Assembly: GCA_016928095.1 (NCBI GenBank)
Contig: JAFGLL010000005.1
Location: 1,102 to 65,101 of the forward strand
DNA from: Thermoplasmatota archaeon
GTDB taxonomy: Archaea > Thermoplasmatota > Penumbrarchaeia > Penumbrarchaeales > Penumbrarchaeaceae
Direction: 5' to 3'
Length of the DNA: 64,000 nt
The notes below the pieces were generated by a model. That model saw nothing but the letters and a program-made list of their open reading frames with translations. It did no database searches and was not told the origin of the DNA. The position numbers and the translations under genes are program-made. This document shows, in pieces, positions 26,888-45,898 of the stretch (positions are counted from its first letter, which is position 1; each line of letters begins with the position of its first letter).

Positions 26888-26969
<82 letters not shown>

Positions 26970-30986: not shown

Positions 30987-33900
30987 TCACTTTTTCGGAG
31001 GTAGGGCCTTCTTACCAGCCTTTTCGCCCTTGAGCTCCTTCCTTCCGGTCTTGCCGTCGGGGATCTGCTTCCTGGGAGTTTCGACGATCTCCGCGTTCTC
31101 CTCCCTCTGCTGCTTGTCCATCCGGTAATAGGCATACCCCATGGCGGCGATTATCAGCAGGAGCAGTACAACGAACACGATCATGAGGGCCTGTACATTC
31201 GACCCGTTCTCATCGTCAGCATCACTATCCGGGCCGACATGGATATCTTTCGGATCGACTACCTGGATGGTCAGAGGCTGGGTATAGGAACTGATCCCGT
31301 CCAGCGAGGTGATGGTGATGTTCAGTGAGTACATTCCCACCTTGGCATCCTTTGCGGCATCGACGTGGAACGTCGTGTTGACGGAGGAGCCCGGTGCCAC
31401 CTCTATCTGGTTCGCGCCCGTCGTGATCTCCATATCCGATCTCAGCAACGCATCTCCATCCACCCTGATCTTGATATTGTCGAAGGTGAACCCGTGGTTG
31501 GAGACCGTCATATTGATGGTCACACCGCTGTCCTGATAGACGACCACAAGCATCCTCTGGAGCTTCAGGACCGGATTGTAAACACCGACGGACATGGAGA
31601 AATGCGATATCGGAGCGAAATCCTTTCCGTCAGAGGAGAGCAGATCGATATAGTACACCCCCTCCTGAAGGGGGGAGAGGATCGGATATCTGGTATCGGT
31701 CAGGACGGATATCCATGGAAGGACATCCGACCCTCCGTAGTATCTTCCTATTCTGATGAAATAATAGACCTTGTCGCCATCAGGGTCCTCTGCCGGCGTC
31801 CAGCTGATCACCGGAGTTCTATCACTGGTCGCCTTCGGCTCGAAGTCCACCACCGGATCGGGCGGGTAATTGGCATCGGTGGATATGATCAGGGTCGAAT
31901 TGGCCGCCGGACCTTTCAAACCATTCGATTCAGGTACGACCTCCACAAGATAGAGGTGACCCGGAACGAATAGCTGGTCGATCTCGGGGTCCCAGTAGGT
32001 GTTCCCGGGAGTTATCTCCTCATCCGTTGCAATGTAGATGAACGAAGACTGGTCGTACACGGATATCCTGTAGGTCACGAGATCACCATCCGGATCGAAC
32101 GAAGGGGACCAGGTGATATGCGGCCTTACGGACCCTGAGACCTTTGGTTGGATGGAGGAAACCTTAGACGGCGGGCGATCTCCCGCTTCTTCCTGGTCCT
32201 CCCGGACCACGATCTGTATGTTGGCGGACAGCCCCGAGTTGCCAAGGAGGTCCCTGGCCCTGACCCGGACGAAATTATAAAAACCGAACGAGAGGGACAG
32301 GTTGAAGCGGATCTCGACCGCATCCTCCACAACCTCATAGCTCCCCTTTATGCTGGACAGGTTCTGCCATGGAAGGAACTTATCTACACCGTCAACTGAA
32401 TAGGAGACATCTATGTTCTCCGGATCGACCCCTATTCCACCATCAGTGATGCTGGCCGTGAAGGACACGACAGTCTCGTTGAAAACGGCCCCCGACCTGG
32501 GTGATGTCATGAGAACGGATGGACCGGTCGCATCCACCCAAACCTTGTAGGTCTCGCTGATGGAGTACTCCTCGTCCTCCCCCCCGTTCCCCAGCATGTC
32601 CTTTGCCCTGAACCTGATCAGGTTATTCATTCCCTCGAGGAATGTGACATTGACATCGTAGAGAACGGTCAGGTTGTCTATTATGTTGACGTCACCCTTC
32701 CTCTGCCATCGGTCCCATTCGCCCTTCTCCTCCTGAAAGGTCTGATAGAATACGGACCATGGATCGACCCCGGAGATATCATCCTTGATCAACAGCTGGA
32801 ACCTTACTATGTTCCGGTCGATCCATTCGTTCTCCTCCGGTTCCCAGAGCTCGAAGGTCGGACCGTTCTGATCGATCTTCGGAAGGTTCATCACGGGGGT
32901 GGTCACCAAGGTCCTGTTCCCGGAAGCGGCCCTTGCCTCGAAGAAGAAGTAGAGGTCAAGCTCTCTTTCAACATCAAGCGAGAGCAGATATGTCTCACCG
33001 TTGCGGTAATCGAAATCCGGGGCCGGGCTTTTTCGCATTGTCATGGGGAAAGGGGAACCGGGGTACGGGAACAGAGACCCGCCCATGGTCCGGTAGGAGA
33101 TGTTCACCTTGGGGAAGCCCAGATCGGGAGGATCGTTCTCGACATCGTAGTAAGTGACCTTGAAATGGAAGGTATCGTCCACGACACCCATCACCGGGTC
33201 CACTGACCCTTCCTCTAGCCTGGGTCCAGAACCGGCTTCCCCGGACTGTGTGGTCCTGGTGAAGAATATATCCGTCTGTCCCTCCCTCCGATTATCTCTC
33301 CAGACGAAATATCCCAATCCTCCATCCTCCACTGCAACTGCCGGATCGTCCTGTACAGTTCCCTGGACCGGCTCGTTCACAGTATAGGTTCGATCGAATG
33401 TTCCATTGGAGAATATCCTTGTCATCATGATATCGGACTTGAAATCAGAGATACCGGGTGATGACGTCCACGCTATGGTGATGTTACCCCCTGTGTCCAT
33501 GGCGATCCTGGGCTCCATCTGATAACCGGAGGTCTCGTTGGGGTGCACGCATCGGTCCAGAGTGAACGTCATACCTAGGTCCATGGATGATGCCATGTAG
33601 ATATCGGCAGAGGTTGATCTGGGGTCCCTCCACACTATGTGAACAACATCCTGGTCCGCTACGATATCGGGCTCGCCCTGGTCCGATCCGGTCGGGTCCC
33701 TGCTGATCCTGATGGACGGATCGAAGGTATCGCCCCCATCCAGCGAGGTGGCCATGTAGATGTCATCGTCCCAGACCCTGTCGTCCACCCAGGTAACATG
33801 AACGCGGTCGCTCTCGGGAAAGCTCACCCTGGGGACAGTGCATTTGTAGATCGTTGTCACGTCGGAGATCTTTACAGCTCCCTCGAAACCGGAACCTCTA

Positions 33901-34487
33901 TCGATCGATCCGTAGATCTGAGGATATCCTGGCCGGTCCCTGGTGTCCTCCCAGACCACTGCCAGCTCATCATAAGGCGAGACATCGATGTCGGGGAAGG
34001 ACTGGGTTCCGGAAAAATGGTCGTTCACCTTGGTGTTGGTCGAATAACTGGACCCGTGATCCTCGGAGCGAGCATAGAATATCATCGACCTGCCTTCGCG
34101 GTCGTCGCTCCATACCACATGGACCGTTCCGTCCGAAGCCACTACCGCATGTGGATACATCTGGCTTGTGAGATCGTCCGTCAAGGTCGCTGTCTTCATA
34201 GTATCGTCCACCCTGACCTCCTGACCAAAGGTCAGACCGCCATCATGCGATGCTCTCGAAAATACATCCCAGTTACCATCCCTCCGGTCCTGCCAGAATA
34301 TGTACACATCATTGCCATCCGCCACGATGTCCGGTGAACTCTGGGACTCGGTGCCAAGGTCCTTGTTGATGATCCGGTCGCTTTCGAAAGCTATGGAACC
34401 CCCGGCATCGTCAACATTGAACAGCATCAAGGTCGTGCACACCAGCATCAAGATGACCAGTGCGCTCCATGCTCTCACGTTGTTCAT
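30987..34487 (-). CDS. Large surface protein with BNR/Asp-box beta-propeller (sialidase-like fold) and FN3-like domains, C-terminal TM with basic cytoplasmic tail
   Basis: ATG at 34487 preceded by GGAGGTGG. Signal peptide WSALVILMLVCTTLML. Asp-boxes SHDGGLTF, SEDHGSSY, SLDGGDTF, SSMDLGMTF. C-terminal TM ALMIVFVVLLLLIIAAMGYAYY plus K-rich tail. The start overlaps the upstream gene's stop (ATGA). Confidence 0.7.
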   Translation of the reverse strand: MNNVRAWSALVILMLVCTTLMLFNVDDAGGSIAFESDRIINKDLGTESQSSPDIVADGNDVYIFWQDRRDGNWDVFSRASHDGGLTFGQEVRVDDTMKTATLTDDLTSQMYPHAVVASDGTVHVVWSDDREGRSMIFYARSEDHGSSYSTNTKVNDHFSGTQSFPDIDVSPYDELAVVWEDTRDRPGYPQIYGSIDRGSGFEGAVKISDVTTIYKCTVPRVSFPESDRVHVTWVDDRVWDDDIYMATSLDGGDTFDPSIRISRDPTGSDQGEPDIVADQDVVHIVWRDPRSTSADIYMASSMDLGMTFTLDRCVHPNETSGYQMEPRIAMDTGGNITIAWTSSPGISDFKSDIMMTRIFSNGTFDRTYTVNEPVQGTVQDDPAVAVEDGGLGYFVWRDNRREGQTDIFFTRTTQSGEAGSGPRLEEGSVDPVMGVVDDTFHFKVTYYDVENDPPDLGFPKVNISYRTMGGSLFPYPGSPFPMTMRKSPAPDFDYRNGETYLLSLDVERELDLYFFFEARAASGNRTLVTTPVMNLPKIDQNGPTFELWEPEENEWIDRNIVRFQLLIKDDISGVDPWSVFYQTFQEEKGEWDRWQRKGDVNIIDNLTVLYDVNVTFLEGMNNLIRFRAKDMLGNGGEDEEYSISETYKVWVDATGPSVLMTSPRSGAVFNETVVSFTASITDGGIGVDPENIDVSYSVDGVDKFLPWQNLSSIKGSYEVVEDAVEIRFNLSLSFGFYNFVRVRARDLLGNSGLSANIQIVVREDQEEAGDRPPSKVSSIQPKVSGSVRPHITWSPSFDPDGDLVTYRISVYDQSSFIYIATDEEITPGNTYWDPEIDQLFVPGHLYLVEVVPESNGLKGPAANSTLIISTDANYPPDPVVDFEPKATSDRTPVISWTPAEDPDGDKVYYFIRIGRYYGGSDVLPWISVLTDTRYPILSPLQEGVYYIDLLSSDGKDFAPISHFSMSVGVYNPVLKLQRMLVVVYQDSGVTINMTVSNHGFTFDNIKIRVDGDALLRSDMEITTGANQIEVAPGSSVNTTFHVDAAKDAKVGMYSLNITITSLDGISSYTQPLTIQVVDPKDIHVGPDSDADDENGSNVQALMIVFVVLLLLIIAAMGYAYYRMDKQQREENAEIVETPRKQIPDGKTGRKELKGEKAGKKALPPKK

Positions 34488-37400
34488 TGCCCCACCTCCC
34501 ATTCATCCTCATCATCCGGATCTTCCTCCTCCATCTCCAGGTCCTCGAGGTCCTCCTCATCGTAGAGGTCAAGGTCCTCCTCATCCACCTCTTCCTCTTC
34601 CTCGTCCTCCTCCTCGTCCGATACCGGAATTTCCTCTGCCTCATCGTTCACATCCTCTTCCGTTAGTTCCTCCGGTTCCTCCTCCAGGTCCTGGTCGGTA
34701 TCTTCCACCAGTCCCTCCTCACCAGGTTTTAAAAGGAGCTCTTTCCTTTTCCGTCCTCTCTTCTTTTTACCTGCCTTTTCCATCTTTACCTTGTCCTCGG
34801 CTGTGAAAACGGAACCGCATTTCATGCAGTACTCGTCCGTTAGCCTGACATCGTTTCCGCAGTAAGGGCATACCGGAACAAAGTGGTCAGGTTCGTAAAC
34901 AGCATCCACCAGAGGTTGATCGGGCTCGCGTGGAGATCCCGATCTGCTCCTTTTTATCAGCAGATAGACCAGCAGCCCACCTATGATGAGGCCGATGAGG
35001 AGAGAGACCAGCAGGAGCGGGAACCAGTCACAGAACCTGTCCCATATCGAACCTTTGTTCCCGCCATCTCCCGATGACTCCTCATCCTGCACAACAACAC
35101 TTAGGAGGTACCTTTCGGATTCAACCACATTCTTTCCGTCGGAGACCACCAGCCATATCCTGTGTACACCGGGAGTGTTCAATGTTGCATTGAGGACCCT
35201 TCCGCTGCCCAGGCTGTCCTGCAATGGATAGAACTCGAGGTCGGAATACCAGACATAAGTGAGTTCCAGTCCTTCCGGATCGTATGAGACCGACCCATCA
35301 AGGACAATGGTATCACCCTGCTTGATGGTGTCCACGGCCGGGTAGATCGTGAAGACCGAGATCGGTAGGAGGTCCCTTTCGGTGATCGCAACCTCTATCT
35401 TGACAGGGGCCGAGACCACCCATCCGTTGCCAGCACTGTCTATGACCCGGAACTTTATCTGGTTGAAAGGACCTTCGTCGAAGAGGACCTCGACGGAAGC
35501 TGCGTACGACCCGCCCCCCCGATCCTCCAGATCGTCAACCTTCAGCCACGGGGAATACCCACCAACACCAAATTGGACCCACCCGCTAATCGTCGAATAG
35601 GAGAACTCTACATTGGATGTTTCCAATCCGGACCCCTCCTCCATTATGAAAGCGGTCACCATCACATCTCGGTCCCTGAGCACCGTGGACCCGTTGGGGA
35701 GGAAACCGTTGAATACGGGCATCTCGTCATCTATGTAGATAGAAACGAGATCGCTCTCCACCATATTTCCCGCAATATCGCTCACCATCCACTGGCCGAA
35801 ACCCCAACCACGGTAGGATGGTAGTACATTGACCGAAGGGGAAGCGCTGGCACCGGCTCCGGACATACCCAGATCGGTCCAGGGCAGGGTATAAAGCTCA
35901 TCCCTCGAGCCGATCCGGTAGTTTATGGAATCCAGCAGGAGACCCGATCCGGTATCCTCGATATAACAGCCCAACGAGAAGGATCCCGGACCGACAAGCA
36001 TGCCGTCCTGATCGCCGATATCGATGGTGGGAAGGTTGATGTCCATATTGTAGGAGAATGGAAGAGATATCGAGGTCTGTCCGGCCAGATCGCTCACCTT
36101 CCATTGTATGTAATTCCCGAAACCATTGGCGGAGGGGACCGTCGCATTCAACCGGACTGAACCATCGAAGGTCGTGATCTCCCTGACAGGCATCCAATCC
36201 GATAAGATCCTCACATCCGAGCGGAAGACCCGATACATTGCAGAGGATATGTCGATACCCACACCGTCATCGGAGACCATTATGGAAAAGCCGTTCGTGA
36301 AGTCGTTTATCCATGCGTTATCCCCTGGGAGAGCACCGTAGAACCTGGGATCATTGATATCCAAAAATAAGGTACGGTTCTCGAAAGGACCGATGTTCCC
36401 GGCCCTGTCACAGGCGAAGAACGAGAGGGTATAGGCTCCTCCGGGAAGGAATATCAGATCGCCGGGGACCAGGTAATCCATCTCAGAAATGATGTTCAGA
36501 TCCTGCCCCAAGACCCGCAGGGTGTAGTTCGATATACCGGAACCTCCCTGGTCCGAAACCTCGGTCCAGTAGACCTCTATGAACTGATCATCATCCACGT
36601 CCGAGATGCCGGATTCCTTCCCGTCGGGGAAGATATTGAAAGATGAGACCGGAGGTGGTTTTACCGTATCGACGTTTAGCTTGAAGGTTACATCCTGACT
36701 CCATTCGGCCCCCCTGGGAAGCGTCCCGTTCGTCAGCCTGTATGTCAGGTCCCTTCCATATAACCCCCCACCAGGAACGGCTGTGATATTGTCCAGGAAG
36801 GACCCGTTCATAACTGCCTTACCGATGGTGATACCATCGGGGCGTTTCAGGGATATCTCCACTCTCGTGGCGTTGGGACCGAACGGTACTCCGGATGTCC
36901 CGTGGACCAGTGAGACATTGCAGACATTGAATTCCGAATCCTCCTTCATCCAGCCTTTGACGGGGGATCCTTCGGGGTCAAGTACCTTGAGATATGAGCT
37001 GTCCAGCCCGATCTCCCTATCGACAACGAACTCGTCGTTGAGGTAATTGGAGTGCGATCCGACCGTGCCACTGGTCGAGGTCACTATCAGGTCGGGGTCC
37101 GGAAGGTCCCAGCCGACCTTGACCATGAACACAACGAACCAAGATTGGACCCCATCGGTCCTGCCAGTACTCAGTGAAGGATATAACATGAGCTGGTCCT
37201 CGAAGTCCCCGGTGGCGATGATGGAGAATTCTTTGGTAGATGTGTCGAAGCTGAGCTCGGCGAAACCTGCAGCATCCTGGCTCATCATCTGGACATTTAC
37301 TGTGTCAATATGTTCGTAACCTACCTGGGAGCGTGCCGCTACCTTGAACTGATAAGGACCCTCCCCGGGTGCCAGGATATCCCTTGGTCTATCGAGTGGG

Positions 37401-40400
37401 CCGGCTATCTCCACAGCGCCTGAGATCTCAAGGGGTTGGGTCCTTACCGATAGGCTGAACAGGTCCTTCCCCTCCCAAAGATATACCACGCCAGGGCTGC
37501 TGCCGTCCAGCAAGGGATCGGCACCCGGAGCTCCGATGAACAGGTCATACTTGCCATCACCCGTGATGTCCTTCCCCGCAAGGGCGGACCCTGCCTCATC
37601 ATTGTCCATGAAGCCGGAGATCAGCGGCAGGGAGGAAGTATTGATGGTCAAAGAGGAGGTCAGTAAAGAATGTGGGAACACATGGACACAACCCGTGACG
37701 AGACCGCTTATCGGGTCCTGAAACCCCTTGGCCCCTATGAACACGTCCAGATCTCCATTCCCGTCAATATCCCCCAGGTCCACCGAGGATCCGGTCCTCT
37801 GATTGACCTGATCACCGCATACCGACACATTGAACTCTGTCCTCAGGGAGATCGTTCCCGAGGGCATCCTTGATGCAAGGAACTCCCCCTGAAGTATGAA
37901 TAGGTTCCCTCCTTCCTTGACGGTTCTCTGAAATCCATCTCCCGATGGGCTTCCCAGGAAGAGTTCGGCCTTCCCATCATCATCCATATCCCTGGCCACA
38001 AGAGATGATCCCACCTCATCATAGGGCCAGGCTCCGAATATACGAAGGCTCGGTTCTGTTACAAGATCGATATCCTGGTTCCAGGTACTCCTGCCCCGCA
38101 GGACATAGGTCACTCCCTGTCTGGTGATGGACCCGGCCTTCGACTTGGGTGCCCCTATCGCCAGGTCACCGATCCCGTCCCCATCCATGTCATCGATGGC
38201 CAGGGTCTCCCCGATGAACTCTGTATCCTCCGTTCCGATGATCTTGACATCATAGATATTGCGGACGCTCCTACTTGTCGTTCCGGAGAGGGGTCCGAAC
38301 ATGATATAGACCATTCCGGCATGGTACCTGTCAGCGGTCTCGGCTCCGTGATCGTAGGGAGCGCCGAATGCCAGGTCGTCGATCCCGTCACCGTTCAGGT
38401 CTCCCACTGCAATTGCGGACCCGATCCGTTCGACAAGGTAGCCGGTATAGGTCAGGTTGGTTCTGGTCATCATGTAGGACCTCGTGCCCCCCCAGAAGAT
38501 GTGGACACTTCCAGCGTCGTTGTACAGCCCGCTGATCTGTGCGGAGGGCGCACCGACCACAAGATCGGGATAGCCATCATTGTTGAGGTCTCCTGTTGCC
38601 ATTGCCCAGCCGAAACGGGAAAAGCTCATGGCATCATTGTAGCGAATATCAGTAGAATCCGCTGCGTAATATCTGCCGCTCCAACCAGCTGGCTCACCGA
38701 AGAACATATGCGCGTATCCTGTCCGACCCGGGTCACCTCCGAGATAATCCCCCACTACCAGGTCATCGTTCCCATCCTGGTCGAAGTCCTCCACTACCAT
38801 CGCGGACCCGAAGCAGGAGGCATTGAACTGACCGACGAACGATGCATCGAAAGAACTTGATTGAGATAGGAAGCTTACAAGGCCGGTCCCCACCGTGGGG
38901 CCCAGATCGACGACCTCTTTGGGGGAGGATATCAGGACCTCCTCCTGACCGTCGATCAGCATCTCCGATGCGGCCATGCTCTGGAAAGCACCGCATTCCC
39001 TTGACCTGCCCTTGTATGCTTTTATGGAGTCTTGGAATGTGAGGACGGAAGGGAACGATCCATCAATGTCGAACAGATAGGCCTCTCCGCAGTCGAACTC
39101 AAGGTTGTCCACACCGTCACCTCCCGGTGCGGCTACAAGCAGTTCGTCGTAACCATCACCGTCAATATCCGCCCCGAGGGTCGTCTTCCCCCAAAGATCG
39201 GATGAATCCACTCCGTACGATGTTGTACTGGCATCCGAACGCCCCAGCTGAATGTCGGTTGTGACATTGCGTCCGATGTGGATATCGAACTGTCCGGCCT
39301 TCTTCCTCCAGGTTTCCACACCAGGTGCATAGGGAAGGCCGATCACGAGATCGTCCTCATCCCCGCCCCCAAGGTCCGCGAACGTCAGGGAAGCCTCCTC
39401 CCAACCACCGGATCGGAGGCTGAACTGAACATCTGGATAGAAATCTGTTCCCTGGTGGACCTGGATGTCGGTTCCCAGAGGGACCCCCGGATATGTGTAA
39501 CCCCCGAGCATGATGACGGCATAACCCTCCCCATTGAACCTGTAGCTGAACGAGAGATCGCCAATGGAATCTCCATTGAAATCCCCCACTGCCAGGCCAT
39601 TCCCTATATGAGTGGCATATGCATCGGCGGTCACGACGGCTTCTCCGAAATATCTTACCATGGGTCTGGAAAAGGAAAGATCGACCGTACCAATGCCCGT
39701 TCCAACCCCTTTGATCACCTCGATCTCCCAGGAGCCAAAGCATTCGTTATCATATTCGGATTCGACCGGATCAGCTTTCCCACCGTGCCCCTCGCTCCGT
39801 ATTACCAATTCAGGTACACCATCGTCGTCGAGGTCGCCCGCCTCGAGAGCAGTACCCAGCCGGTCGCCACCTTCCCTGCCGTATACATGACAGAAAAGCC
39901 CCACCCTGTCGATCTGCATCGAAGTACCAAAGGAGACCCGCTGCCTGCCCGTTATCACATAAACCTCTCCCGAGTCCCTCCGGCCGTTCAGGGGACCATC
40001 TGCAAAGGGAGCTCCGATCATCAGATCGTCCCTTCCGTCCAGGTTGAGGTCCTCAACGAGAAGGGAGCTTCCGAACCAATCATCGACATCACCCGCTGTA
40101 ATGACAAGGTCAGCATCGTAGTGCCCGATCAATGTGAAAAGTTCATCCGGTTCACGAGCAAAATATACCATAACCGCACCTCCACCCGCACCAAGTCTTG
40201 ACATCGGGGCCCCGATCACGATGTCACCCCTTCCGTCTCCGTCGAGGTCGCCGGATGCGACCGTTGAACCGAAGGGTACCCCCGATTCTCCCCCCAGTAT
40301 GGACATGGTATCATCCCTGCCAAGGACCACGTATGAATCCTGGTCCAGGGATGCGGGGGTTTCAGACCGTGTTTCGTTCCCCCCGATTACCGTTGGCAGG

Positions 40401-40501
40401 GCTGATGTTATTAGGGTGATCATTATTACAAGAGATGATAGTACGGGACTTCGGGACACGCTCTTCCTCCTCTTGATATTGGTCAGGTGGCATTTGCGCA
40501 T
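34484..40501 (-). CDS. Giant (2005 aa) integrin-alpha-like surface receptor: ~14 FG-GAP repeats (two beta-propellers), Ig-like domains, TM helix, cytoplasmic zinc ribbon and polyacidic tail
   Basis: ATG verified at 40501. FG-GAP/Ca-binding repeats such as GDLDGDGRGDIVIGAP, EDLNLDGRDDLMIGAPF, GDLNNDGYPDLVVGAPS, DDMDGDGIGDLAIGAPKS. TM LLLVSLLIGLIIGGLLVYLLI. Cytoplasmic CPYCGNDVRLTDEYCMKCG followed by ~75 residues that are mostly D/E. Confidence 0.75.
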   Translation of the reverse strand: MRKCHLTNIKRRKSVSRSPVLSSLVIMITLITSALPTVIGGNETRSETPASLDQDSYVVLGRDDTMSILGGESGVPFGSTVASGDLDGDGRGDIVIGAPMSRLGAGGGAVMVYFAREPDELFTLIGHYDADLVITAGDVDDWFGSSLLVEDLNLDGRDDLMIGAPFADGPLNGRRDSGEVYVITGRQRVSFGTSMQIDRVGLFCHVYGREGGDRLGTALEAGDLDDDGVPELVIRSEGHGGKADPVESEYDNECFGSWEIEVIKGVGTGIGTVDLSFSRPMVRYFGEAVVTADAYATHIGNGLAVGDFNGDSIGDLSFSYRFNGEGYAVIMLGGYTYPGVPLGTDIQVHQGTDFYPDVQFSLRSGGWEEASLTFADLGGGDEDDLVIGLPYAPGVETWRKKAGQFDIHIGRNVTTDIQLGRSDASTTSYGVDSSDLWGKTTLGADIDGDGYDELLVAAPGGDGVDNLEFDCGEAYLFDIDGSFPSVLTFQDSIKAYKGRSRECGAFQSMAASEMLIDGQEEVLISSPKEVVDLGPTVGTGLVSFLSQSSSFDASFVGQFNASCFGSAMVVEDFDQDGNDDLVVGDYLGGDPGRTGYAHMFFGEPAGWSGRYYAADSTDIRYNDAMSFSRFGWAMATGDLNNDGYPDLVVGAPSAQISGLYNDAGSVHIFWGGTRSYMMTRTNLTYTGYLVERIGSAIAVGDLNGDGIDDLAFGAPYDHGAETADRYHAGMVYIMFGPLSGTTSRSVRNIYDVKIIGTEDTEFIGETLAIDDMDGDGIGDLAIGAPKSKAGSITRQGVTYVLRGRSTWNQDIDLVTEPSLRIFGAWPYDEVGSSLVARDMDDDGKAELFLGSPSGDGFQRTVKEGGNLFILQGEFLASRMPSGTISLRTEFNVSVCGDQVNQRTGSSVDLGDIDGNGDLDVFIGAKGFQDPISGLVTGCVHVFPHSLLTSSLTINTSSLPLISGFMDNDEAGSALAGKDITGDGKYDLFIGAPGADPLLDGSSPGVVYLWEGKDLFSLSVRTQPLEISGAVEIAGPLDRPRDILAPGEGPYQFKVAARSQVGYEHIDTVNVQMMSQDAAGFAELSFDTSTKEFSIIATGDFEDQLMLYPSLSTGRTDGVQSWFVVFMVKVGWDLPDPDLIVTSTSGTVGSHSNYLNDEFVVDREIGLDSSYLKVLDPEGSPVKGWMKEDSEFNVCNVSLVHGTSGVPFGPNATRVEISLKRPDGITIGKAVMNGSFLDNITAVPGGGLYGRDLTYRLTNGTLPRGAEWSQDVTFKLNVDTVKPPPVSSFNIFPDGKESGISDVDDDQFIEVYWTEVSDQGGSGISNYTLRVLGQDLNIISEMDYLVPGDLIFLPGGAYTLSFFACDRAGNIGPFENRTLFLDINDPRFYGALPGDNAWINDFTNGFSIMVSDDGVGIDISSAMYRVFRSDVRILSDWMPVREITTFDGSVRLNATVPSANGFGNYIQWKVSDLAGQTSISLPFSYNMDINLPTIDIGDQDGMLVGPGSFSLGCYIEDTGSGLLLDSINYRIGSRDELYTLPWTDLGMSGAGASASPSVNVLPSYRGWGFGQWMVSDIAGNMVESDLVSIYIDDEMPVFNGFLPNGSTVLRDRDVMVTAFIMEEGSGLETSNVEFSYSTISGWVQFGVGGYSPWLKVDDLEDRGGGSYAASVEVLFDEGPFNQIKFRVIDSAGNGWVVSAPVKIEVAITERDLLPISVFTIYPAVDTIKQGDTIVLDGSVSYDPEGLELTYVWYSDLEFYPLQDSLGSGRVLNATLNTPGVHRIWLVVSDGKNVVESERYLLSVVVQDEESSGDGGNKGSIWDRFCDWFPLLLVSLLIGLIIGGLLVYLLIKRSRSGSPREPDQPLVDAVYEPDHFVPVCPYCGNDVRLTDEYCMKCGSVFTAEDKVKMEKAGKKKRGRKRKELLLKPGEEGLVEDTDQDLEEEPEELTEEDVNDEAEEIPVSDEEEDEEEEEVDEEDLDLYDEEDLEDLEMEEEDPDDEDEWEVGQ
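34492..34499 (-). promoter_or_regulatory. Shine-Dalgarno GGAGGTGG, 4 nt upstream of the ATG at 34487
   Basis: Placement favours the internal Met as the true start. The same motif recurs before the ATGs at 42546, 24506 and 27732. Confidence 0.5.
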
Positions 40502-40522
40502 GAACTACGATGCCGTCGCCCA

Positions 40523-40533
40523 GATATCTTTAG
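40523..40533 (-). promoter_or_regulatory. TATA-like TAAAGATAT about 22-32 nt upstream of the 2005-aa integrin-like gene ATG (40501)
   Basis: A further TTATAAAAAG at 40555-40565 could serve the divergent DUF2085 gene. Confidence 0.35.
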
Positions 40534-40653
40534 CCCGATTTCAACAATTACAGATTATAAAAAGATTGTGGGGCAGATATGTATTGGCAGAGCGAGGCCA
40601 GAGGTGCCTATCCATAAAGATTTATCTCCTATGGACACCTCTGCATACCGAAA

Positions 40654-41061
40654 ATGAACGAAAATGACAGCGTTCTCAGGTCGAAAATGACCGTTAATGA
40701 CCTCGGTGGTCCGATCGTGGATGACAGGTGTAGATCTCTTAGGATCGCCTGCCACGGTGACCCTGACCGATGTTTCTGGCTAAGAGGGAGACCTTTACCT
40801 CTCTGTTCGCGATGCACGACATTCTACCCCTCTATACTGATCGGTCTGGTCCTGGGGATCCCCCTTGTCATCACTCTGGAGATCTCTGCATTGATCGTCC
40901 TCATATCATTCATCCTGCTCCAGCTCCCGCTTGTTATCGACGGCTTCACGCAGTACAATGGTTGGAGGAGGTCCAACAATGTATTGAGAGCGGTCACCGG
41001 TGTCCTCTCAGGGTTCGGTATCGGTGGTGGAATAACCTACATGATGACAACGATCTTCTGA
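40654..41061 (+). CDS. DUF2085-family membrane protein
   Basis: CFWLRGRPLPLCSRCTTFY matches the DUF2085 signature. Three predicted TM helices. An alternative ATG at 40687 is possible. Confidence 0.6.
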   Translation: MNENDSVLRSKMTVNDLGGPIVDDRCRSLRIACHGDPDRCFWLRGRPLPLCSRCTTFYPSILIGLVLGIPLVITLEISALIVLISFILLQLPLVIDGFTQYNGWRRSNNVLRAVTGVLSGFGIGGGITYMMTTIF

Positions 41062-41062
41062 T

Positions 41063-41463
41063 TCAGTAGAAGCTCTTGCACTTCGGGCAGAACCAGGATT
41101 CCACCCTCTCTTTATAGACCATTCCGGTCCCGCAGACCGGGCAGGATTCACCTTTCTTCTTCTTACCGTCCTGGTCCATGAACATCCTATCGTATGCCGG
41201 CTCTTTCTGTACCCCTGCCTCATCGGGGCCTTTGAAATCAAAATCATCACTGGAGTGGGACGCGATCTTCTGCCCGGCCCCGCATTCGGAACATCTTCCG
41301 GATCCCTTCGAGACCTTCGCGCCGCAGTTCCAGCATTTTATCTTGGAGGCTTTTTTTACAGGTCGTTGAGGTTCGATCTCATCCTCTTCTTCATAAGAGG
41401 ACGAGCGCTTCTTCTTTTTTTTCTTGTGAGGGGGTTCCTCTTCGACCGCTAGAGAGGCTTTAC
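41063..41463 (-). pseudogene. Out-of-frame (+1) continuation of the poly-Glu zinc-ribbon gene, encoding two further zinc ribbons; probable frameshift at an A10 homopolymer
   Basis: Frame is open from 41463 with no ATG before KIKCWNCGAKVSKGSGRCSECG...CPVCGTGMVYKERVESWFCPKCKSFY*. It opens with EEEPPHKKKKKKR, continuing the repeat style of the upstream ORF. A stop lies just upstream in this frame. Confidence 0.45.
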
Positions 41464-42546
41464 CTACCTTCTTTTTTTTTTCCTCTTGGGAATATCTATC
41501 TCCTCATCCTCTTCATGATGAGCCGGATGCTTCTTCTTCATCTTGCGGGGAGGTTCTTCTTCATCATCGTCATAATTGGTCGGACGCTTCTTCTTCTTCA
41601 TCTTGCGGGGAGGTTCTTCTTCTTCCTCTTCCTCCTCGGGTTCTTCCCTCAGAACACCTTTACGACCGCAATCATCGCATATGAATTTCAATGGTCTCCT
41701 TCTGGACCTTATCTTGATGATATTTCCGCATTTACACCGGATCTTGAGGACTTCTTCCTCCTCGTCTTCTTCCTCCTCTTCGTCCTCTTCCTCTTCCTCC
41801 TCTTCCTCTTCTTCCTCTTCGTCCTCTTCCTCTTCCTCCTCCTCGTCCTCTTCCTCTTCCTCCTCCTCGTCCTCTTCCTCCTCCTCGTCCTCTTCTTCCT
41901 CCTCGTCCTCTTCCTCTTCTTCCTCCTCGTCCTCTTCCTCTTCCTCCTCCTCGTCCTCTTCCTCTTCTTCCTCCTCGTCCTCTTCCTCTTCCTCCTCCTC
42001 GTCCTCTTCCTCTTCTTCCTCCTCTTCTTCCTCTTCGTATCGATCTCTGGACTTCTTCTTTCCAGTTCCCACTACGAAGATCTCCTCCTCATCATCCTCG
42101 AGGCTTATAGGACGGTAGCTGGACCTTACAGCTCCCTCATCTCCATCGCTGGTGATGTCAAAGCCTCTCTTTTTTACTGGCTTCTTCCCCTTCTCCTCAC
42201 CTTTTGGTTTCTTTTTTGAGACAGTGGTCTCTTCTTCCAGAACCACCTTCTTCTTGAGAGGCTTGCCCTCGTCCTTGTGCTTCTTTTTAAGAGGCTTTTC
42301 CCCGTCAGTATGCTTCTTCTTGAGAGGCTTGCCTTCGTCAGCATGCTTCTTCTTCAAAGGCTTGCCCTCGTCCTTGTGCTTCTTTTTAAGAGGCTTCTTC
42401 TCGGGAACCCCGTACTTTTCCTCGTATTTTTTAGCGAACACCCTGGCCTTCTTGGCAAGGTCCCCCTTGGGGACCCAACCACATTCTTGACACCTGTCAA
42501 AGGGATAATCCATTTTAGCCTTGCATTTCTTGCACGGGACCTTCAT
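41464..42546 (-). CDS. Cytoplasmic multi-zinc-ribbon protein with five KPLKKKH(K/A/T)DEG repeats and a ~94-residue poly-Glu/Asp tract
   Basis: ATG at 42546 (MKVPCKKCK) preceded by GAGGTGGG. The track ORF starts at ATG 42573. Zinc ribbons CKKC...CQECG and CKCG...CDDCG. E/D tract encoded at 41758-42039. C-terminal EEEPPRKMKKK repeats. The ORF stops just after an A10 run. Confidence 0.6.
   Translation of the reverse strand: MKVPCKKCKAKMDYPFDRCQECGWVPKGDLAKKARVFAKKYEEKYGVPEKKPLKKKHKDEGKPLKKKHADEGKPLKKKHTDGEKPLKKKHKDEGKPLKKKVVLEEETTVSKKKPKGEEKGKKPVKKRGFDITSDGDEGAVRSSYRPISLEDDEEEIFVVGTGKKKSRDRYEEEEEEEEEEEDEEEEEEEDEEEEEEEDEEEEEEEDEEEEEEEDEEEEEDEEEEEDEEEEEEEDEEEEEEEDEEEEEEEEEEEEDEEEEEDEEEEVLKIRCKCGNIIKIRSRRRPLKFICDDCGRKGVLREEPEEEEEEEEPPRKMKKKKRPTNYDDDEEEPPRKMKKKHPAHHEEDEEIDIPKRKKKRR
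41758..42039 (-). repeat. Imperfect GAG/GAA/GAC trinucleotide array (~94 codons) encoding poly-Glu/Asp
   Basis: The plus strand reads (CTC/TTC/GTC)n with a periodic 7E+D or 5E+D pattern. Visible directly in the sequence at 41.76-42.04 kb. Confidence 0.9.
42250..42399 (-). repeat. Five tandem 33-nt repeats encoding KPLKKKH(K/A/T)DEG
   Basis: The plus strand shows five iterations of gaggcttgccctcgtccttgtgcttctttttaa-like units. Confidence 0.85.
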
Positions 42547-42715
42547 CCATCCCACCTCTTGTATCGATGACATACATCATGCATACAAAATAAAAAGGTT
42601 TCCCACTTTTTCAATGATTCTTCATCACCTATGTATAGGAACCCGCAGATATCATCATTTGCCTCCGATGGAGGCTGACCCGCGGTCTCCACGGAGGGTG
42701 GACGGTCCAAGACTG

Positions 42716-45700
42716 TCAGTCCGCCATCATTTCTCTATCCTCTTCCGAGGCTCCCGCTCCATCAGGGTCAATAAGGTCCTCCGGTCCGGGATGGCTGATC
42801 TCTTCCTCCCTGTGATCCTCCATAGGATGATCGCCGGATGGACCCTCATCCAATGAGCCCTCCTCGATCTCGTCCTCGGGAAGGTCCATTCCGCATTCAG
42901 GGCAGTAGGACATGCTTTCCTCGATGGACGCACTGCAGAAAGGGCACTCCTTACGGGTCATTTTCTCCTGCTCGGACCATGTTGGTCCATCGTTCGTCTT
43001 CTCCGGTTCGGCAGCTTCTTCCGATCCCTGCGTCATATCATCTTTTCTCTTGTGGAACAGGACGACCGCCAAGATCACCGCCCCCAGCAATATGATGATG
43101 ACGACCACTATCAATATAACAAGCCAGAGTCCAGAACTCGTTCCATCCACCTCTGGAACACTTTCAGGATCAAGGGGGTCCGAACCCTTCTCGTATTCCT
43201 CCAGGTTCGTATAACCGTCCACATCCATATCACCCTGGGCATCTGATGCCCATTTCGGGTTCATTCCCCAACCTACTTCTATACCGTCCGGAATGCCGTC
43301 ATCGTCCGTATCGGGATTGTCCGGTTCCGTCCCCAACTGGTATTCCTGGAGGTTTGTCAGTCCGTCCCTGTCCTGGTCTTCGGCCGCATCCGTATTGTCT
43401 GCGGGGGACAGGAAATCGTAGCCGATCTCGTAGATGTCCGGTATGCCGTCACCATCCCCGTCGATATCCTCGACCGAGATGGTCCTGAACGTGATCACGA
43501 GATCATTTGCGGAATTCCCGCTAAGGTCCCTGATGGGTCCAAGGGTGAAGGTATAGTTCGTTCCATCCTGGAGTGAATCCTCAGGGTGATAAGTGATGGT
43601 CCTGGTCTCCACGTTCAGTTCGAAATCAAGTATCACGGAGGAATACCCGCCCTCGGGGACCAAGGATGCCAGAAGAGCATCCCATTCTATGAGCTCGGAG
43701 AACCTTATGGAGATAGAGGGTCCGAGTTCGATGTTGACCGCTCCATCCTCCGGTTCGACCGATATGACACCCGGTGCCTGAGTGTCCGGGATGGCCACGA
43801 TGAGATCATACTCCAGGGTCTCCCAGTTCCCCGCGATATCGTAACCTGTTACCGTCAAAGAATAGGAACCGACATCAAGGTCTATCGATAGGTCCGTTCC
43901 CTGGACCTCTTCATAAGTGTAGTTGTTCGAAATGGTCCAGGTGACATGATCGACCCCGCTCTCATCGGTTATATTCAGCTCAAGGTCGACGTTCTGTCCC
44001 TCGTAGGACATGATCGTCCCTCCGTCGACCCCCTCTATGAACATTTCAGGGTCCTTCAGGTCCACCCATATGTTCGATGAGTTAAATGGACCAGCATTCA
44101 GGGATGGGTCAATGGACCTGAACTGGGCAGTGTGTTTTCCTTCGTTGAGGAAGAAATAGTACTGGAATACACCCCCATAGGTGGTCCATCTCTCTATTAT
44201 CCCTTCGGGGTCCGTGAAATCCTTTCCGTCCAGCTTGATCTCGATCACTGTCCTGTTCTCTCCTGTGACATTGACCTTGAACCCAACGAGAGATGTGTTG
44301 AAGAACAAAGAGCCAGGTATATACTGTACTGCATCCAAGGGGAAGAACTCAAGCCTTGGTGCGACAGGGGGTGTAATATCAAGGGTTGTAAATGCTACGG
44401 TCGAAGATGGAGGGCCGAAGTTCGGGGTCTCGGCATCATCGACCGCAACGATATAGGCTTCTATCTCGGTTTCGGAGGGCAGGCCGGTGATCTTCTCGGT
44501 CACTGACATCCAGTTGTCGATATAGATCGAGAGGTTCCATGAACTATCGACGGCTTCCAAGAATATCCAGAAGCCGATAATATCATCACTTGGACTTGGG
44601 GTCCATTTCAGCTGCACCCAATCCCCTCCGAAACCCTCTACAGTGAAATTCCTGGGAGGTTGGGGTGGAATGATATCGAGGGTCTTTCCAAAGACCGGAC
44701 CGAAGAACCCCAACGTATTTGCATAATAATCCTCTGATCGGATGCTGATATTCCAGAGAGTATCATGCTCCAGGCCATCGATGATGAAACTCCTTGCCTT
44801 GTCCTTGGCATTCACGGACTTGGTCTCGGAAATATGAGCGCCATCTCTCCTGTAATCTATTCTGAACCATTGTAGATCTCCCGGAGGGTTCGGAAGGTCC
44901 CATAGAACTTCTATCGTTGTCCCGGTCCTATTGCCGACGGTCAGGTTTTCCACTTTTGGAGGTGGTGTGAAATCCAGGTACCAGGTCATATTGAAGTTAT
45001 CTCCAATAAAAAGACCCGGATCCTTGAGGTCGTTCCGCCAGTATGCTGCTGACGCGGACCGCTCCCACCTCATTGTGATCTCGACCTTGACAGACGATGT
45101 GGATCCCATATGCTTGTACTGATTGACAGCAATAGGAGGCATTATTCCATCCGATCCGGTCACCAGACCGGTCAATGTGGGATCGAAGACCGTCCATTCA
45201 TCAAGCTCGGTCGGATATTTTTTACCATATACCTTGACCGATACAAGATCCACACCCTTTTGTTCGTAATCATCGATCGCCCTTAAGAAGAACCATTTAC
45301 CCTCGTGCACTTCTGCAGAACTCTGAGCCGTGACGTTTCTTGGAGCGTTGAATGTGCAGTTGACGACCCAGCCATAGCCACCCGTCATACCCCTGAAACC
45401 TGCCGAATTCCCCATGAGGGTCGAATTGTAGACATATGCTCTTGACCCCATGCCCATCGTCTTTACCCCTCCAGCAGACCCCATCATCAGTATATGGTCC
45501 AGGTATCCGTATCCTCCCTGAGTGATGTTGATACCATCGTAAAAGAAGGATGTATGAGATCTATCGAAAATTATTGGAGATGCTTCTGTTCCGGCGGCCA
45601 GAATGGCACCTTCCACCCAGATCCCGACCGACGGAGGGAGTTGGACCGTAACTCCGGGATCGATCCTCAGGGTCCTGCCCACAGGTACTGACACGTTCCC

Positions 45701-45898
45701 CTCGAGCAATACGGGGGAGTCTGCAATTCCCCATCGGGTGTCACCGGTAAGAGGCCCCTCCGGGACCACGATCCCCGACACTATCTCGGGAACCATGAAC
45801 GTGAAGATGAGGGTCAGTGACGATAGAAGCAGTAAGGATATCACTGCCATGGTCGACAAGTTACGAGAACTGGCGGTGTAATTTATATCGAGGCCCAT
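42716..45898 (-). CDS. Large (1060 aa) surface protein with thrombospondin type-3-like Ca-binding repeats, TM helix, cytoplasmic zinc ribbon and acidic tail
   Basis: ATG verified at 45898 with GGAGAG upstream. N-terminal anchor [23 protein letters not shown]3-like DxDxDGxxD repeats ([38 protein letters not shown]). [27 protein letters not shown]. Cytoplasmic [19 protein letters not shown] followed by a D/E-rich tail. Confidence 0.65.

What the first reader, a model, noticed from the sequence alone, without database searches (positions are those of the whole stretch)
41063..42573. Prokaryotic protein with a ~94-residue near-pure poly-Glu/Asp tract, KPLKKKH repeats and four zinc ribbons
Homopolymeric acidic tracts of this length are very rare outside eukaryotes. 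The tract is written as a periodic GAG/GAA/GAC array (7E+D and 5E+D units), which implies expansion by replication slippage. The extreme segregation of charge (+ blocks, then - block, then + blocks) is what one sees in histone-chaperone or nucleoplasmin-like proteins, cation (Ca2+) buffers, DNA mimics or coacervate-forming proteins. The four zinc ribbons (CKKC/CQECG, CKCG/CDDCG, CWNCG/CSECG, CPVCG/CPKC) suggest nucleic-acid or partner-protein binding.
Basis: seen in the sequence. Interest (0 to 1): 0.75.

Follow-up and report, generated by a model that had tools for sequence, protein, structure and literature searches.

The report
Frameshifted archaeal poly-glutamate zinc-ribbon gene
The poly-glutamate protein is real, but its four zinc ribbons lie in two reading frames joined at a run of ten A's that is kept in every relative found, so this archaeal gene most likely makes a short and a long protein by a programmed -1 frameshift, which is rarely documented in archaea.

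Summary
The listed features are all present on the minus strand, but 41063-42573 is not one ORF. ORF1 (41464-42573; true start probably ATG 42546) holds zinc ribbons 1-2, five KPLKKKH repeats and a 95-residue tract (84 Glu, 11 Asp). It stops at TAG 41464-41466, just after an A10 run (41472-41481). Ribbons 3-4 lie in the -1 frame, with no start codon before ribbon 3.

Twelve distinct relatives, all Thermoplasmatota MAGs or metagenome contigs, show the same layout:
- an A10 run (A11 in one lineage) in the same codon phase;
- a 0-frame stop 1-2 codons later;
- only the -1 frame open (checked over its full length in nine).

This is the only A/T run of 9 or more in the window. Lys codons elsewhere in these genes are 74% AAG. 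The -1 frame shows third-position substitution bias. One distant homolog (P0022) encodes both halves in one frame.

Best reading: one recoded gene giving a 360-aa and a 494-aa isoform, by transcriptional slippage or -1 ribosomal frameshifting. No experiment supports this yet.

The acidic tract is conserved in position but varies in length: about 17 to 105 residues across lineages, and 82-105 among four near-identical assemblies. This fits slippage-driven expansion.

Biochemical function is unknown. I infer a disordered, charge-block cytoplasmic adaptor. The chaperone, Ca2+-buffer and DNA-mimic ideas have no support.

The parts
42587..42598 (-). Putative archaeal TATA/BRE element (CCTTTTTATTTT), about 45 nt upstream of the conserved start
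   Evidence: Nearly identical element at the same distance in L004 and L015, with A/T-rich equivalents in L021 and L023. Inferred from conservation only.
42551..42558 (-). Shine-Dalgarno-like GAGGTGGG in front of the conserved ATG
   Evidence: GAGGTGG is conserved in all five lineages that have a complete 5' end.
41464..42546 (-). ORF1, 0 frame (short isoform, 360 aa from the conserved start MKVPCKKC). The mechanical ORF starts 27 nt further upstream, at 42573 (369 aa). Stop is TAG 41464-41466.
   Evidence: Orthologs begin at MKVPC/MKVKC.
42481..42534 (-). Zinc ribbon 1 (CKKC..CQEC), followed by a conserved K-rich segment (DLAKKA..FAKKYEEKYG)
   Evidence: Invariant Cys in four lineages. Matches P0012 and P0022.
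42247..42396 (-). Five KPLKKK(H) basic repeats, 33-nt period
   Evidence: Relatives carry different K-rich repeats at the same position.
42067..42168 (-). Conserved linear motif 1: RGFDITSDGDEGAVRSSYRPISLEDDEEEIFVVG
   Evidence: Conserved in WIN, L004, L015, L021 and L023.
41752..42036 (-). Acidic tract, 95 aa (84 E, 11 D), in E7D and E5D units. Hypervariable in length across the family.
41665..41736 (-). Zinc ribbon 2 (CKCG..CDDCG), inside the conserved block VLKIRCKCGNIIKIRS..RPLKFICDDCGRKGVLRE
41530..41619 (-). EEEPPRKMKKK repeats. The same repeat continues in the -1 frame as EEEPPHKKKKKK at 41408-41443.
   Evidence: The Logan contig breaks here.
41472..41481 (-). A10 slippery run (AAA AAA AAA A in the 0 frame): the proposed site of the -1 shift or of a +1-nt transcriptional slip
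   Evidence: The only A/T run of 9 or more in the 64-kb window and in each related locus checked. Conserved in 12 lineages in the same codon phase.
41063..41473 (-). ORF2, -1 frame (136 codons plus stop TGA 41063-41065). It adds the C-terminal extension of the 494-aa long isoform.
   Evidence: No start codon before 41185.
41279..41335 (-). Zinc ribbon 3 (CWNCG..CSECG)
   Evidence: Weak Pfam Zn_Ribbon_1 match, 23.7 bits against a cut-off of 25. Conserved in most lineages; absent in L020, L023 and P0022.
41177..41248 (-). Conserved linear motif 2 (DDFDFKGPDEAGVQKEPAYDRMFM). By eye it resembles motif 1 (FD.x..DE(G/A)(A/G)V....Y).
   Evidence: Alignments A1 and A4. The resemblance to motif 1 is my own reading and was not tested.
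41078..41143 (-). Zinc ribbon 4 (CPVCG..WFCPKC, ending KSFY at the C-terminus)
   Evidence: Best-conserved part of the family. pLDDT about 85. Weak similarity to eS31/S27ae and eL43 ribbons. The same ribbon type recurs in other, likely archaeal, proteins, many of which look membrane-anchored by eye.

Best explanation
41063-42573 is a single recoded gene of a Thermoplasmatota archaeon.

Standard decoding gives a 360-aa short isoform. Its order is: zinc ribbon 1, K-rich repeats, a conserved motif, the poly-Glu/Asp tract, zinc ribbon 2, and EEEPPRKKK repeats. It ends at a stop codon two codons after an A10 run.

A fraction of expression shifts to the -1 frame at that run and gives a 494-aa long isoform. 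This adds more EEEPP(R/H)KKK repeats, zinc ribbon 3, a second conserved motif and zinc ribbon 4.

Shown: the ORF arrangement, its conservation, and coding constraint on the -1 frame.

Inferred: how the shift happens. I favour RNA polymerase slippage on the T10 template, which would add one A to the mRNA (about 50%). Ribosomal -1 slippage or sliding on A_AAA_AAA is the alternative (about 35%). Both may contribute.

Also inferred: the product is a largely disordered cytoplasmic adaptor with blocks of opposite charge. Its zinc ribbons would be docking modules, and the frameshift would set how many molecules carry the C-terminal ribbon. That ribbon type also ends many small proteins and some large surface-type proteins that look membrane-anchored by eye. 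The acidic tract would be a length-tolerant anionic spacer that expands and contracts by replication slippage.
For: 1. The frames meet at A10, and ribbon 3 has no start codon of its own in the window or in L004.
2. Twelve distinct lineages (WIN, L003, L004, L005, L015-18, L019, L020, L021/22, L023, L024, L025, L026) all have A10 (A11 in L021/22) ending in the same codon phase (AAA AAA AAA AGR). All have a 0-frame stop 1-2 codons later, built from different codons (AGA TAG, AGA AGG TAG, AGG TAA, AGA AAG TGA, AGG TTA TAG, AGG AGA TAA). All continue in the -1 frame.
3. In the nine lineages checked, the 0 frame stops after 1-2 codons, the +1 frame after 2-7, and the -1 frame stays open for 94-160 codons.
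4. It is the only A/T run of 9 or more in the window and in each locus checked. Lys codons elsewhere in these genes are 26% AAA (140 of 538), and there are never more than two consecutive AAA codons.
5. Differences between L004, L005 and L019 in the -1 frame fall mostly at third codon positions: 42 of 55, 60 of 80 and 46 of 64. In the linker before ribbon 3 alone the counts are 17 of 25, 22 of 36 and 14 of 26.
6. The EEEPPRKKK repeat continues across the shift.
7. P0022, a 218-aa single ORF, matches ORF1 (E 7e-13 and 3e-12) and ORF2 (E 7e-12). The fused polypeptide therefore exists in the family.
8. All 11 clusters holding the C-terminal domain are 83-115 aa. None of these relatives is fused in frame.
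9. In bacteria, selection against A/T runs is evident from about 9 nt, and such runs are used for programmed slippage in dnaX and IS elements (PMC1088944). A_AAA_AAR sites with overlapping ORFs are accepted frameshift candidates, including in Methanococcales (PMC3711429, PMC5009743).
10. Adaptor idea: 57% of residues are charged, and the AlphaFold model shows two small ribbons joined by a disordered linker. The ribbon-4 type recurs in tandem in other proteins. It also sits at the C-terminal end of small proteins and of large surface-type proteins that carry hydrophobic, TM-like stretches by my inspection. Both giant neighbours carry weak zinc-ribbon matches near their C-termini.
Against: - There are no RNA or protein data, so the frameshift is inferred only from comparative sequence.
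- No conserved RNA structure lies downstream of the run. A hairpin is present only in the L004/L005/L019 subgroup. This removes a classic -1 PRF hallmark.
- Programmed transcriptional slippage in a cellular gene has not been demonstrated in archaea, to my knowledge.
- In several lineages gene callers found a start codon for ORF2 (P0001-P0011), so some independent initiation cannot be excluded there.
- The lineages are related, so 12 occurrences are not 12 independent events.
- Function is inferred from composition and module sharing only. Conserved synteny may simply reflect relatedness.
Confidence: 0.75

Rival explanations
1. Two independent genes. ORF1 and ORF2 are separately translated proteins, and the A10 run is just a lysine run at the end of ORF1.
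For: Gene callers annotate ORF2 as a separate 83-115 aa protein in most relatives. Some lineages have an ATG or GTG upstream of ribbon 3 (L003, L005, L015, L019).
Against: - In the window and in L004 there is no ATG, GTG or TTG before ribbon 3, yet ribbon 3 is conserved.
- Putative start positions are not conserved between lineages.
- The sequence from the run to those starts is under coding constraint and continues the ORF1 repeat motif.
- P0022 is a single fused ORF.
- A pure A10 is unexpected when only 26% of Lys codons are AAA.
Confidence: 0.08
2. DNA-level phase variation. The A run is a contingency locus that switches the C-terminal extension on (A11) and off (A10) by replication slippage in the population.
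For: Homopolymer runs of 10 are hypermutable. The acidic array in the same gene does vary between near-identical populations.
Against: All 17 assemblies that cover the junction carry the out-of-frame length. These include four assemblies of one population (L015-18) and two of another (L021/22). The one A11 gains its extra A on the 5' side, in place of another base, without restoring the frame. Minority variants cannot be seen in consensus contigs.
Confidence: 0.07
3. Sequencing or assembly error, or a decaying pseudogene. The true gene is one ORF, or the C-terminal part is dead.
For: Homopolymers and low-complexity repeats are error-prone, and many contigs break inside this gene. L023 has an extra frame break, and L005 looks chimeric.
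Against: The same run length and the same frame relation appear in assemblies from NCBI, JGI, ENA and Logan, made with different assemblers. ORF2 has strong third-position bias and invariant cysteines.
Confidence: 0.03
4. The T10 run is conserved mainly as an oligo-T terminator for the convergent DUF2085 gene on the + strand. The frame change would then be incidental.
For: The DUF2085 stop codon abuts the ORF2 stop codon (41061 and 41063), and similarly in most lineages, so there is no intergenic room for a terminator. T8 and T10 are the first long T runs downstream on that strand. That archaeal RNA polymerase terminates at oligo-T is from my own knowledge.
Against: A terminator would need neither a fixed codon phase, nor a 0-frame stop within two codons, nor an open, constrained -1 frame. 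This idea may add to the recoding role, but it cannot replace it.
Confidence: 0.05

Closest known systems
Programmed transcriptional slippage at A/T runs of 9 or more (Thermus thermophilus dnaX; bacterial IS-element OrfA/OrfAB; Shigella mxiE) and selectively maintained poly(A) frameshifts in insect endosymbionts
   Same: A homopolymeric A run of 9 or more inside a coding region. The 0-frame product ends just after the run, and the -1 frame encodes a conserved extension, as in IS OrfA/OrfAB. The run is preserved across lineages despite available synonymous alternatives (PMC1088944; endosymbiont reference listed in PMC3711429).
   Different: All established cases are bacterial or viral. I know of no demonstrated case of programmed slippage by an archaeal RNA polymerase in a cellular gene. 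No mRNA data exist here.
Archaeal -1 frameshift candidates: Saccharolobus solfataricus fucA1 (A-AAA-AAT) and Mg-chelatase genes of Methanococcales (A_AAA_AAR)
   Same: An A-rich slippery site, two overlapping ORFs in a 0/-1 relation, and in-frame fused homologs elsewhere in the family (P0022 here) (PMC8211752, PMC5009743, PMC3711429).
   Different: - The fucA1 frameshift is confined to a few strains, and most homologs are full length. Here all close relatives are shifted.
- The run is 10 nt, longer than a heptamer requires.
- There is no conserved downstream structure.
- The protein is not an enzyme.
Ribosomal zinc-ribbon proteins eS31 (S27ae) and eL43 (L37ae)
   Same: The K-rich lead-in plus CPxCG..(F/Y)C.KC ribbon of ORF2 aligns weakly with them (E 0.003-0.07 against PDB). 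JGI auto-annotated one homolog as S27AE.
   Different: No Ribosomal_S27 match appears for the window protein at E up to 0.01. The architecture is completely different. Foldseek gives only generic zinc ribbons, such as RPA, TFIIB, RNA polymerase subunits and NudC, all with E above 0.07.
Eukaryotic acidic-tract proteins (nucleoplasmin, nucleolin, prothymosin-alpha)
   Same: A long Glu/Asp tract next to basic blocks, and predicted disorder.
   Different: No nucleoplasmin core or other chaperone domain was found by Pfam. The tract length is not conserved, ranging from about 7 to 105 residues within the family. The comparison rests on composition only and on my own knowledge.
Uncharacterised, likely archaeal, proteins that carry the same C-terminal ribbon (P0015-P0019 with 5-6 tandem copies; small proteins P0079-P0100; large proteins P0088 and P0096)
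   Same: They share the ribbon-4 signature C.xCG..(M/L).Y.E....(W/Y)YC..C..Y, often at the very C-terminus and preceded by K-rich or disordered linkers.
   Different: Most of these carry hydrophobic, TM-like stretches by my inspection. The window protein has none and has its own N-terminal ribbons. No Pfam family covers the module, so nothing is known about its partner.

Membership tests
Programmed transcriptional slippage (realignment) site | Homopolymeric A or T run of about 9 nt or more within the coding region | tested here: met
   A10 at 41472-41481. A10 or A11 in all 12 lineages.
Programmed transcriptional slippage (realignment) site | Run preserved by selection, with an ORF layout that needs one extra nucleotide in the mRNA | tested here: met
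   Same codon phase in every lineage. Only 26% of other Lys codons are AAA. Only the -1 frame (the frame read from an A11 mRNA) stays open.
Programmed transcriptional slippage (realignment) site | mRNA population with a varying number of A's, made from a uniform DNA template | not testable with these tools
   No read-level or transcriptome data are available.
Canonical -1 programmed ribosomal frameshift | Slippery heptamer X_XXY_YYZ in the 0 frame, with an overlapping -1 ORF | tested here: met
   A_AAA_AAA within AAA AAA AAA AGR. The -1 ORF is open for 94-160 codons in the nine lineages checked.
Canonical -1 programmed ribosomal frameshift | Stimulatory RNA structure 5-9 nt downstream of the slippery site | tested here: not met
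   RNAalifold finds no consensus pairs in 8 lineages. Single-sequence folds are not more stable than shuffles, except in L005 and L019.
Phase-variable contingency locus | Run length differs between strains or assemblies, switching the frame on and off | tested here: not met
   All 17 assemblies covering the junction are out of frame. Read-level minority variants were not testable.
Ribosomal protein eS31/S27ae | Match to Pfam Ribosomal_S27 (PF01599) above its gathering score, as a small stand-alone protein | tested here: not met
   No PF01599 match for the window ORF2 at E up to 0.01. Only weak PDB sequence matches, E 0.003 or higher.
Pfam zinc-ribbon families (Zn_Ribbon_1 PF13240, DZR PF12773) | Score at or above the curated cut-off | tested here: not met
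   Ribbon 3 scores 23.7 bits against a cut-off of 25 for PF13240, and 19.1 against 27.3 for PF12773. The Cys4 spacing and the predicted beta-hairpins still fit a zinc ribbon.
Nucleoplasmin / histone-chaperone-like acidic proteins | A recognisable chaperone core domain in addition to the acidic tract | tested here: not met
   Pfam finds nothing in ORF1 at E up to 0.01. A PDB profile search with the conserved ORF1 blocks gives only two chance-level L31 hits.

The most novel reading that the evidence does not exclude
This could be the first case of programmed transcriptional slippage in a cellular gene of Archaea. The site is ancient: it is fixed across a whole Thermoplasmatota clade. It would set the ratio of two isoforms of a hyper-charged zinc-ribbon adaptor. 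Only the long isoform carries the C-terminal ribbon that also ends many apparently membrane-anchored proteins, so the slip rate would control how much of the adaptor is tethered to their common partner. The poly-Glu tract would serve as a rapidly evolving spacer.
Probability: 0.3. Interest if true: 0.75.

Novelty: new member of a known kind. Interest (0 to 1): 0.6.

Why it matters
[quoted passage not shown] Other cases, such as Mg-chelatase and viral tail chaperones, are predicted (PMC8211752, PMC5009743).

This locus offers a recoding candidate fixed in 12 lineages, with a simple and testable signal: ten A's followed almost at once by a 0-frame stop. It could show whether archaeal RNA polymerase, which is related to Pol II, slips productively on A/T runs. 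It could also show whether archaeal ribosomes slide on poly(A).

There is a practical lesson for annotation. The gene is split into two "hypothetical proteins" in every database record seen, and many assemblies break inside it.

The protein family is uncharacterised. So is the recurring C-terminal zinc-ribbon module found at the ends of many other uncharacterised proteins.

Tried and rejected
- A protein search with a concatenated query lacking the poly-Glu tract found nothing at E up to 0.01. Exact look-up of the 369-aa ORF also found nothing.
- A profile of the three conserved ORF1 blocks found only P0012. The low-complexity ORF1 proteins seem poorly indexed.
- The metagenome DNA scan gave one close but truncated locus (L010) plus unrelated zinc ribbons.
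- The search for a downstream frameshift-stimulating RNA structure found no conserved structure.
- Rfam found only one tRNA in the window.
- The AlphaFold model of ORF2 was of moderate quality (pLDDT 68), and Foldseek against PDB gave only generic zinc ribbons. A PDB sequence search gave weak eS31/eL43 similarity that fails the membership test.
- A rare or "hungry" Arg codon after the run was rejected, because AGG is the commonest Arg codon in this window.
- A literature search for the SRA run gave nothing.
- Contig look-up for P0008 returned no DNA.
- Chaperone, Ca2+-buffer and DNA-mimic functions were considered but have no supporting evidence.
Full report
**What is in the sequence.**

On the minus strand, an ORF runs from 42573 to a TAG stop at 41464-41466 and encodes 369 aa. 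It contains:
- zinc ribbon 1 (CKKC..CQEC, 42481-42534);
- five KPLKKK(H) repeats of 33-nt period (42247-42396);
- a conserved motif, RGFDITSDGDEGAVRSSYRPISLEDDEEEIFVVG (42067-42168);
- a 95-residue acidic tract (84 Glu, 11 Asp; 41752-42036), written as E7D and E5D units with GAG, GAA and GAC;
- zinc ribbon 2 (CKCG..CDDCG, 41665-41736);
- EEEPPRKMKKK repeats.

The finding's span of 41063-42573 is 1511 nt, which is not a multiple of three. Ribbons 3 (CWNCG..CSECG) and 4 (CPVCG..CPKC) lie in the -1 frame. That frame has no ATG, GTG or TTG before 41185, which is downstream of ribbon 3.

The two frames meet at an A10 run (T10 on the + strand, 41472-41481). The 0-frame reading there is AGG AAA AAA AAA AGA AGG TAG.

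**Is the run real?**

A Logan assembly of run SRR13394437 (L001) is 100% identical to the window over 36095-41559, including the run. That contig ends at 41559, inside the PPRKMKKK repeat, so it does not cover the acidic tract. Many other assemblies also break inside this gene. The exact number of units in the acidic array therefore cannot be checked here. Its longest exact internal repeat is 80 nt.

**Relatives.**

- A genome scan with the C-terminal 102 aa found three Thermoplasmatota MAG loci, L003-L005.
- A profile of the C-terminal domain found 11 protein clusters. Their contigs were fetched as L015-L022 and L024-L026.
- A profile of the ORF1 blocks found P0012, from Thermoplasmatales archaeon ex4484_6 (L023).

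Synteny is conserved where the contigs reach far enough. A roughly 1070-aa fn3/Big_5 surface protein comes first, then this gene, then a convergent DUF2085 gene, then a roughly 2000-aa FG-GAP surface protein.

In all 12 distinct lineages the following hold:
- ORF1 ends 1-2 codons after an A10 run (A11 in L021/L022, where the extra A is on the 5' side and keeps the frame relation).
- The run ends in the same codon phase (AAA AAA AAA AGR).
- The early 0-frame stop is built from different codons in different lineages.
- The C-terminal domain is in the -1 frame.

In the nine lineages checked, the +1 frame closes within 2-7 codons, while the -1 frame stays open for 94-160 codons.

**Is this more than chance or error?**

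- The run is the only A/T run of 9 or more in the 64-kb window and in each related locus checked.
- In these very Lys-rich genes only 26% of Lys codons are AAA (140 of 538). More than two consecutive AAA codons never occur elsewhere. The other K-runs are broken up by AAG.
- The -1 frame is under coding constraint. Differences between L004, L005 and L019 fall at third codon positions in 42 of 55, 60 of 80 and 46 of 64 cases. The bias also holds in the linker between the run and ribbon 3.
- The EEEPP(R/H)KKK repeat of ORF1 continues in the -1 frame.
- An exhaustive profile search found P0022, a 218-aa single ORF. It has ribbon 1, ribbon 2 and ribbon 4 in one frame, and its junction reads PPRRKKRQRRDRE with no K-run. 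It matches both window ORFs (E 7e-13, 3e-12 and 7e-12).
- None of the 11 clusters is fused; all are 83-115 aa.

Together these results argue against sequencing error, a pseudogene, or two unrelated genes. They argue for a programmed -1 event that yields a 360-aa and a 494-aa isoform.

The true start is probably the ATG at 42546 (MKVPCKKC). It is preceded by a conserved GAGGTGG and, about 45 nt upstream, by a conserved CCTTTTTATTTT.

**Mechanism of the shift (inferred).**

A conserved run of 10 is longer than the heptamer that tandem tRNA slippage needs. There is no conserved downstream structure. AGG, the kind of codon that follows the run, is the commonest Arg codon here, so a rare-codon pause is unlikely.

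In many bacterial genomes, selection against A/T runs in coding regions is evident from about 9 nt. Such runs are used in dnaX and in IS elements to make ORF fusions (PMC1088944). I therefore favour RNA polymerase slippage adding one A. Ribosomal -1 slippage or sliding on A_AAA_AAA is the main alternative. Comparable A_AAA_AAR sites are accepted candidates in Mg-chelatase genes, including in Methanococcales (PMC3711429, PMC5009743).

DNA-level phase variation is not supported by the assembled consensus. All 17 assemblies covering the junction carry the out-of-frame length. Minority variants in the reads could not be checked.

According to a 2021 review, only fucA1 has been reported as programmed -1 frameshifting in archaeal cells (PMC8211752).

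**The acidic tract.**

Its position is conserved, between motif 1 and ribbon 2. Its length and repeat unit are not:
- about 17 residues in L004;
- 42 in L021;
- about 60 in L023;
- 95 here;
- 82-105 in four near-identical assemblies (L015-L018). There, every ORF1 amino-acid difference lies inside the tract;
- about 7 in P0022.

It suggests a length-tolerant anionic spacer rather than a precisely sized binding surface. In a survey of archaeal proteomes, low-complexity regions average 36 aa, with a maximum of 390 aa (PMC6821194). The tract is therefore unusual but not unique.

**Function (inferred, weak).**

Pfam finds nothing in ORF1 and only sub-threshold zinc-ribbon matches in ORF2. AlphaFold models ORF2 as two small ribbons joined by a disordered linker (mean pLDDT 68; about 85 for ribbon 4). 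Foldseek returns only generic zinc ribbons. Sequence similarity of ribbon 4 to eS31/S27ae and eL43 is weak (E 0.003 or higher) and fails the membership test.

More informative is where the ribbon-4 signature recurs:
- in 5-6 tandem copies in other proteins;
- at the C-terminal end of small proteins and of large surface-type proteins that carry hydrophobic, TM-like stretches by my inspection.

Both giant neighbours carry weak zinc-ribbon matches near their C-termini. By my reading of their sequences, these lie on charged tails behind a hydrophobic segment.

My best guess is a disordered, block-charged cytoplasmic adaptor (57% charged residues). Its ribbons would dock onto partners, and the frameshift would decide what fraction carries the C-terminal docking ribbon. 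No evidence supports histone-chaperone, Ca2+-buffer or DNA-mimic roles.

**Verdict.**

- Observation: partly confirmed.
- Main result: a conserved A10 recoding site in an uncharacterised Thermoplasmatota gene family. It is a new member of a known kind of recoding signal, in a domain of life where few cases are documented.
- Next: read-level, transcript and peptide data would settle both the frameshift and the true tract length.

Noticed in passing
window 34484-40501 (-) and 42716-45898 (-); L003, L004, L005: The two giant surface-type proteins flanking the gene (FG-GAP, 2005 aa; fn3/Big_5, 1060 aa) each end, by my reading, with a hydrophobic segment, a zinc ribbon, a K-rich stretch and an acidic tail. 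The FG-GAP orthologs all end in a similar C-terminal motif (DEWEVGQ or DEWGVGP).
   Followed up: partly
window 40654-41061 (+) versus 41063 (-); T8 at 41415-41422 and T10 at 41472-41481: The DUF2085 gene is convergent with the target gene, and their stop codons abut. The same is true in most lineages. The T8 and T10 runs on the + strand could terminate the DUF2085 transcript, whose 3' end would then be antisense to all of ORF2.
   Followed up: no
L005 1-600: In this MAG contig the N-terminal part of ORF1 is replaced by an unrelated, TPR-like-looking sequence joined through a poly-Glu stretch, and ribbon 2 is missing. This is probably a chimeric assembly across GAG/GAA repeats.
   Followed up: no
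L023 5001-5922 (Thermoplasmatales archaeon ex4484_6): Besides the A10 -1 junction at 5905-5914, this ortholog has a second frame break just upstream of motif 1. It could be an assembly error or a second frameshift.
   Followed up: no
L020, L023, P0022: These family members lack zinc ribbon 3 but keep motif 2 and ribbon 4, so ribbon 3 appears dispensable.
   Followed up: partly
P0015-P0019, P0079-P0100, P0088, P0096 (one search hits): The ribbon-4 type (C.xCG..M.Y.E....WYC..C..Y) is a recurrent module not covered by any Pfam family. It occurs 5-6 times in tandem between low-complexity linkers, and at the C-terminal end of proteins that carry hydrophobic, TM-like stretches by eye.
   Followed up: partly
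window 41559; L003, L019, L024, L025 contig ends: Short-read assemblies often break inside the acidic or PPRKKK repeats of this gene. Full-length copies are therefore under-represented in databases, and ORF1 homologs are hard to retrieve.
   Followed up: partly
window 1771-4746, 8196-11834, 11838-14594, 30987-34502, 53290-56829, 58652-61906: The window is unusually rich in very large proteins with surface-type domains (cadherin-like/Big_9, beta-helix/NosD, CARDB, peptidase C25, Beta_propel). The 1171-aa gene overlaps the end of the FG-GAP gene by 19 nt (34484-34502).
   Followed up: no
window 26888-26965 (+): A single tRNA-Arg(CCT) is the only RNA gene detected in the window.
   Followed up: no
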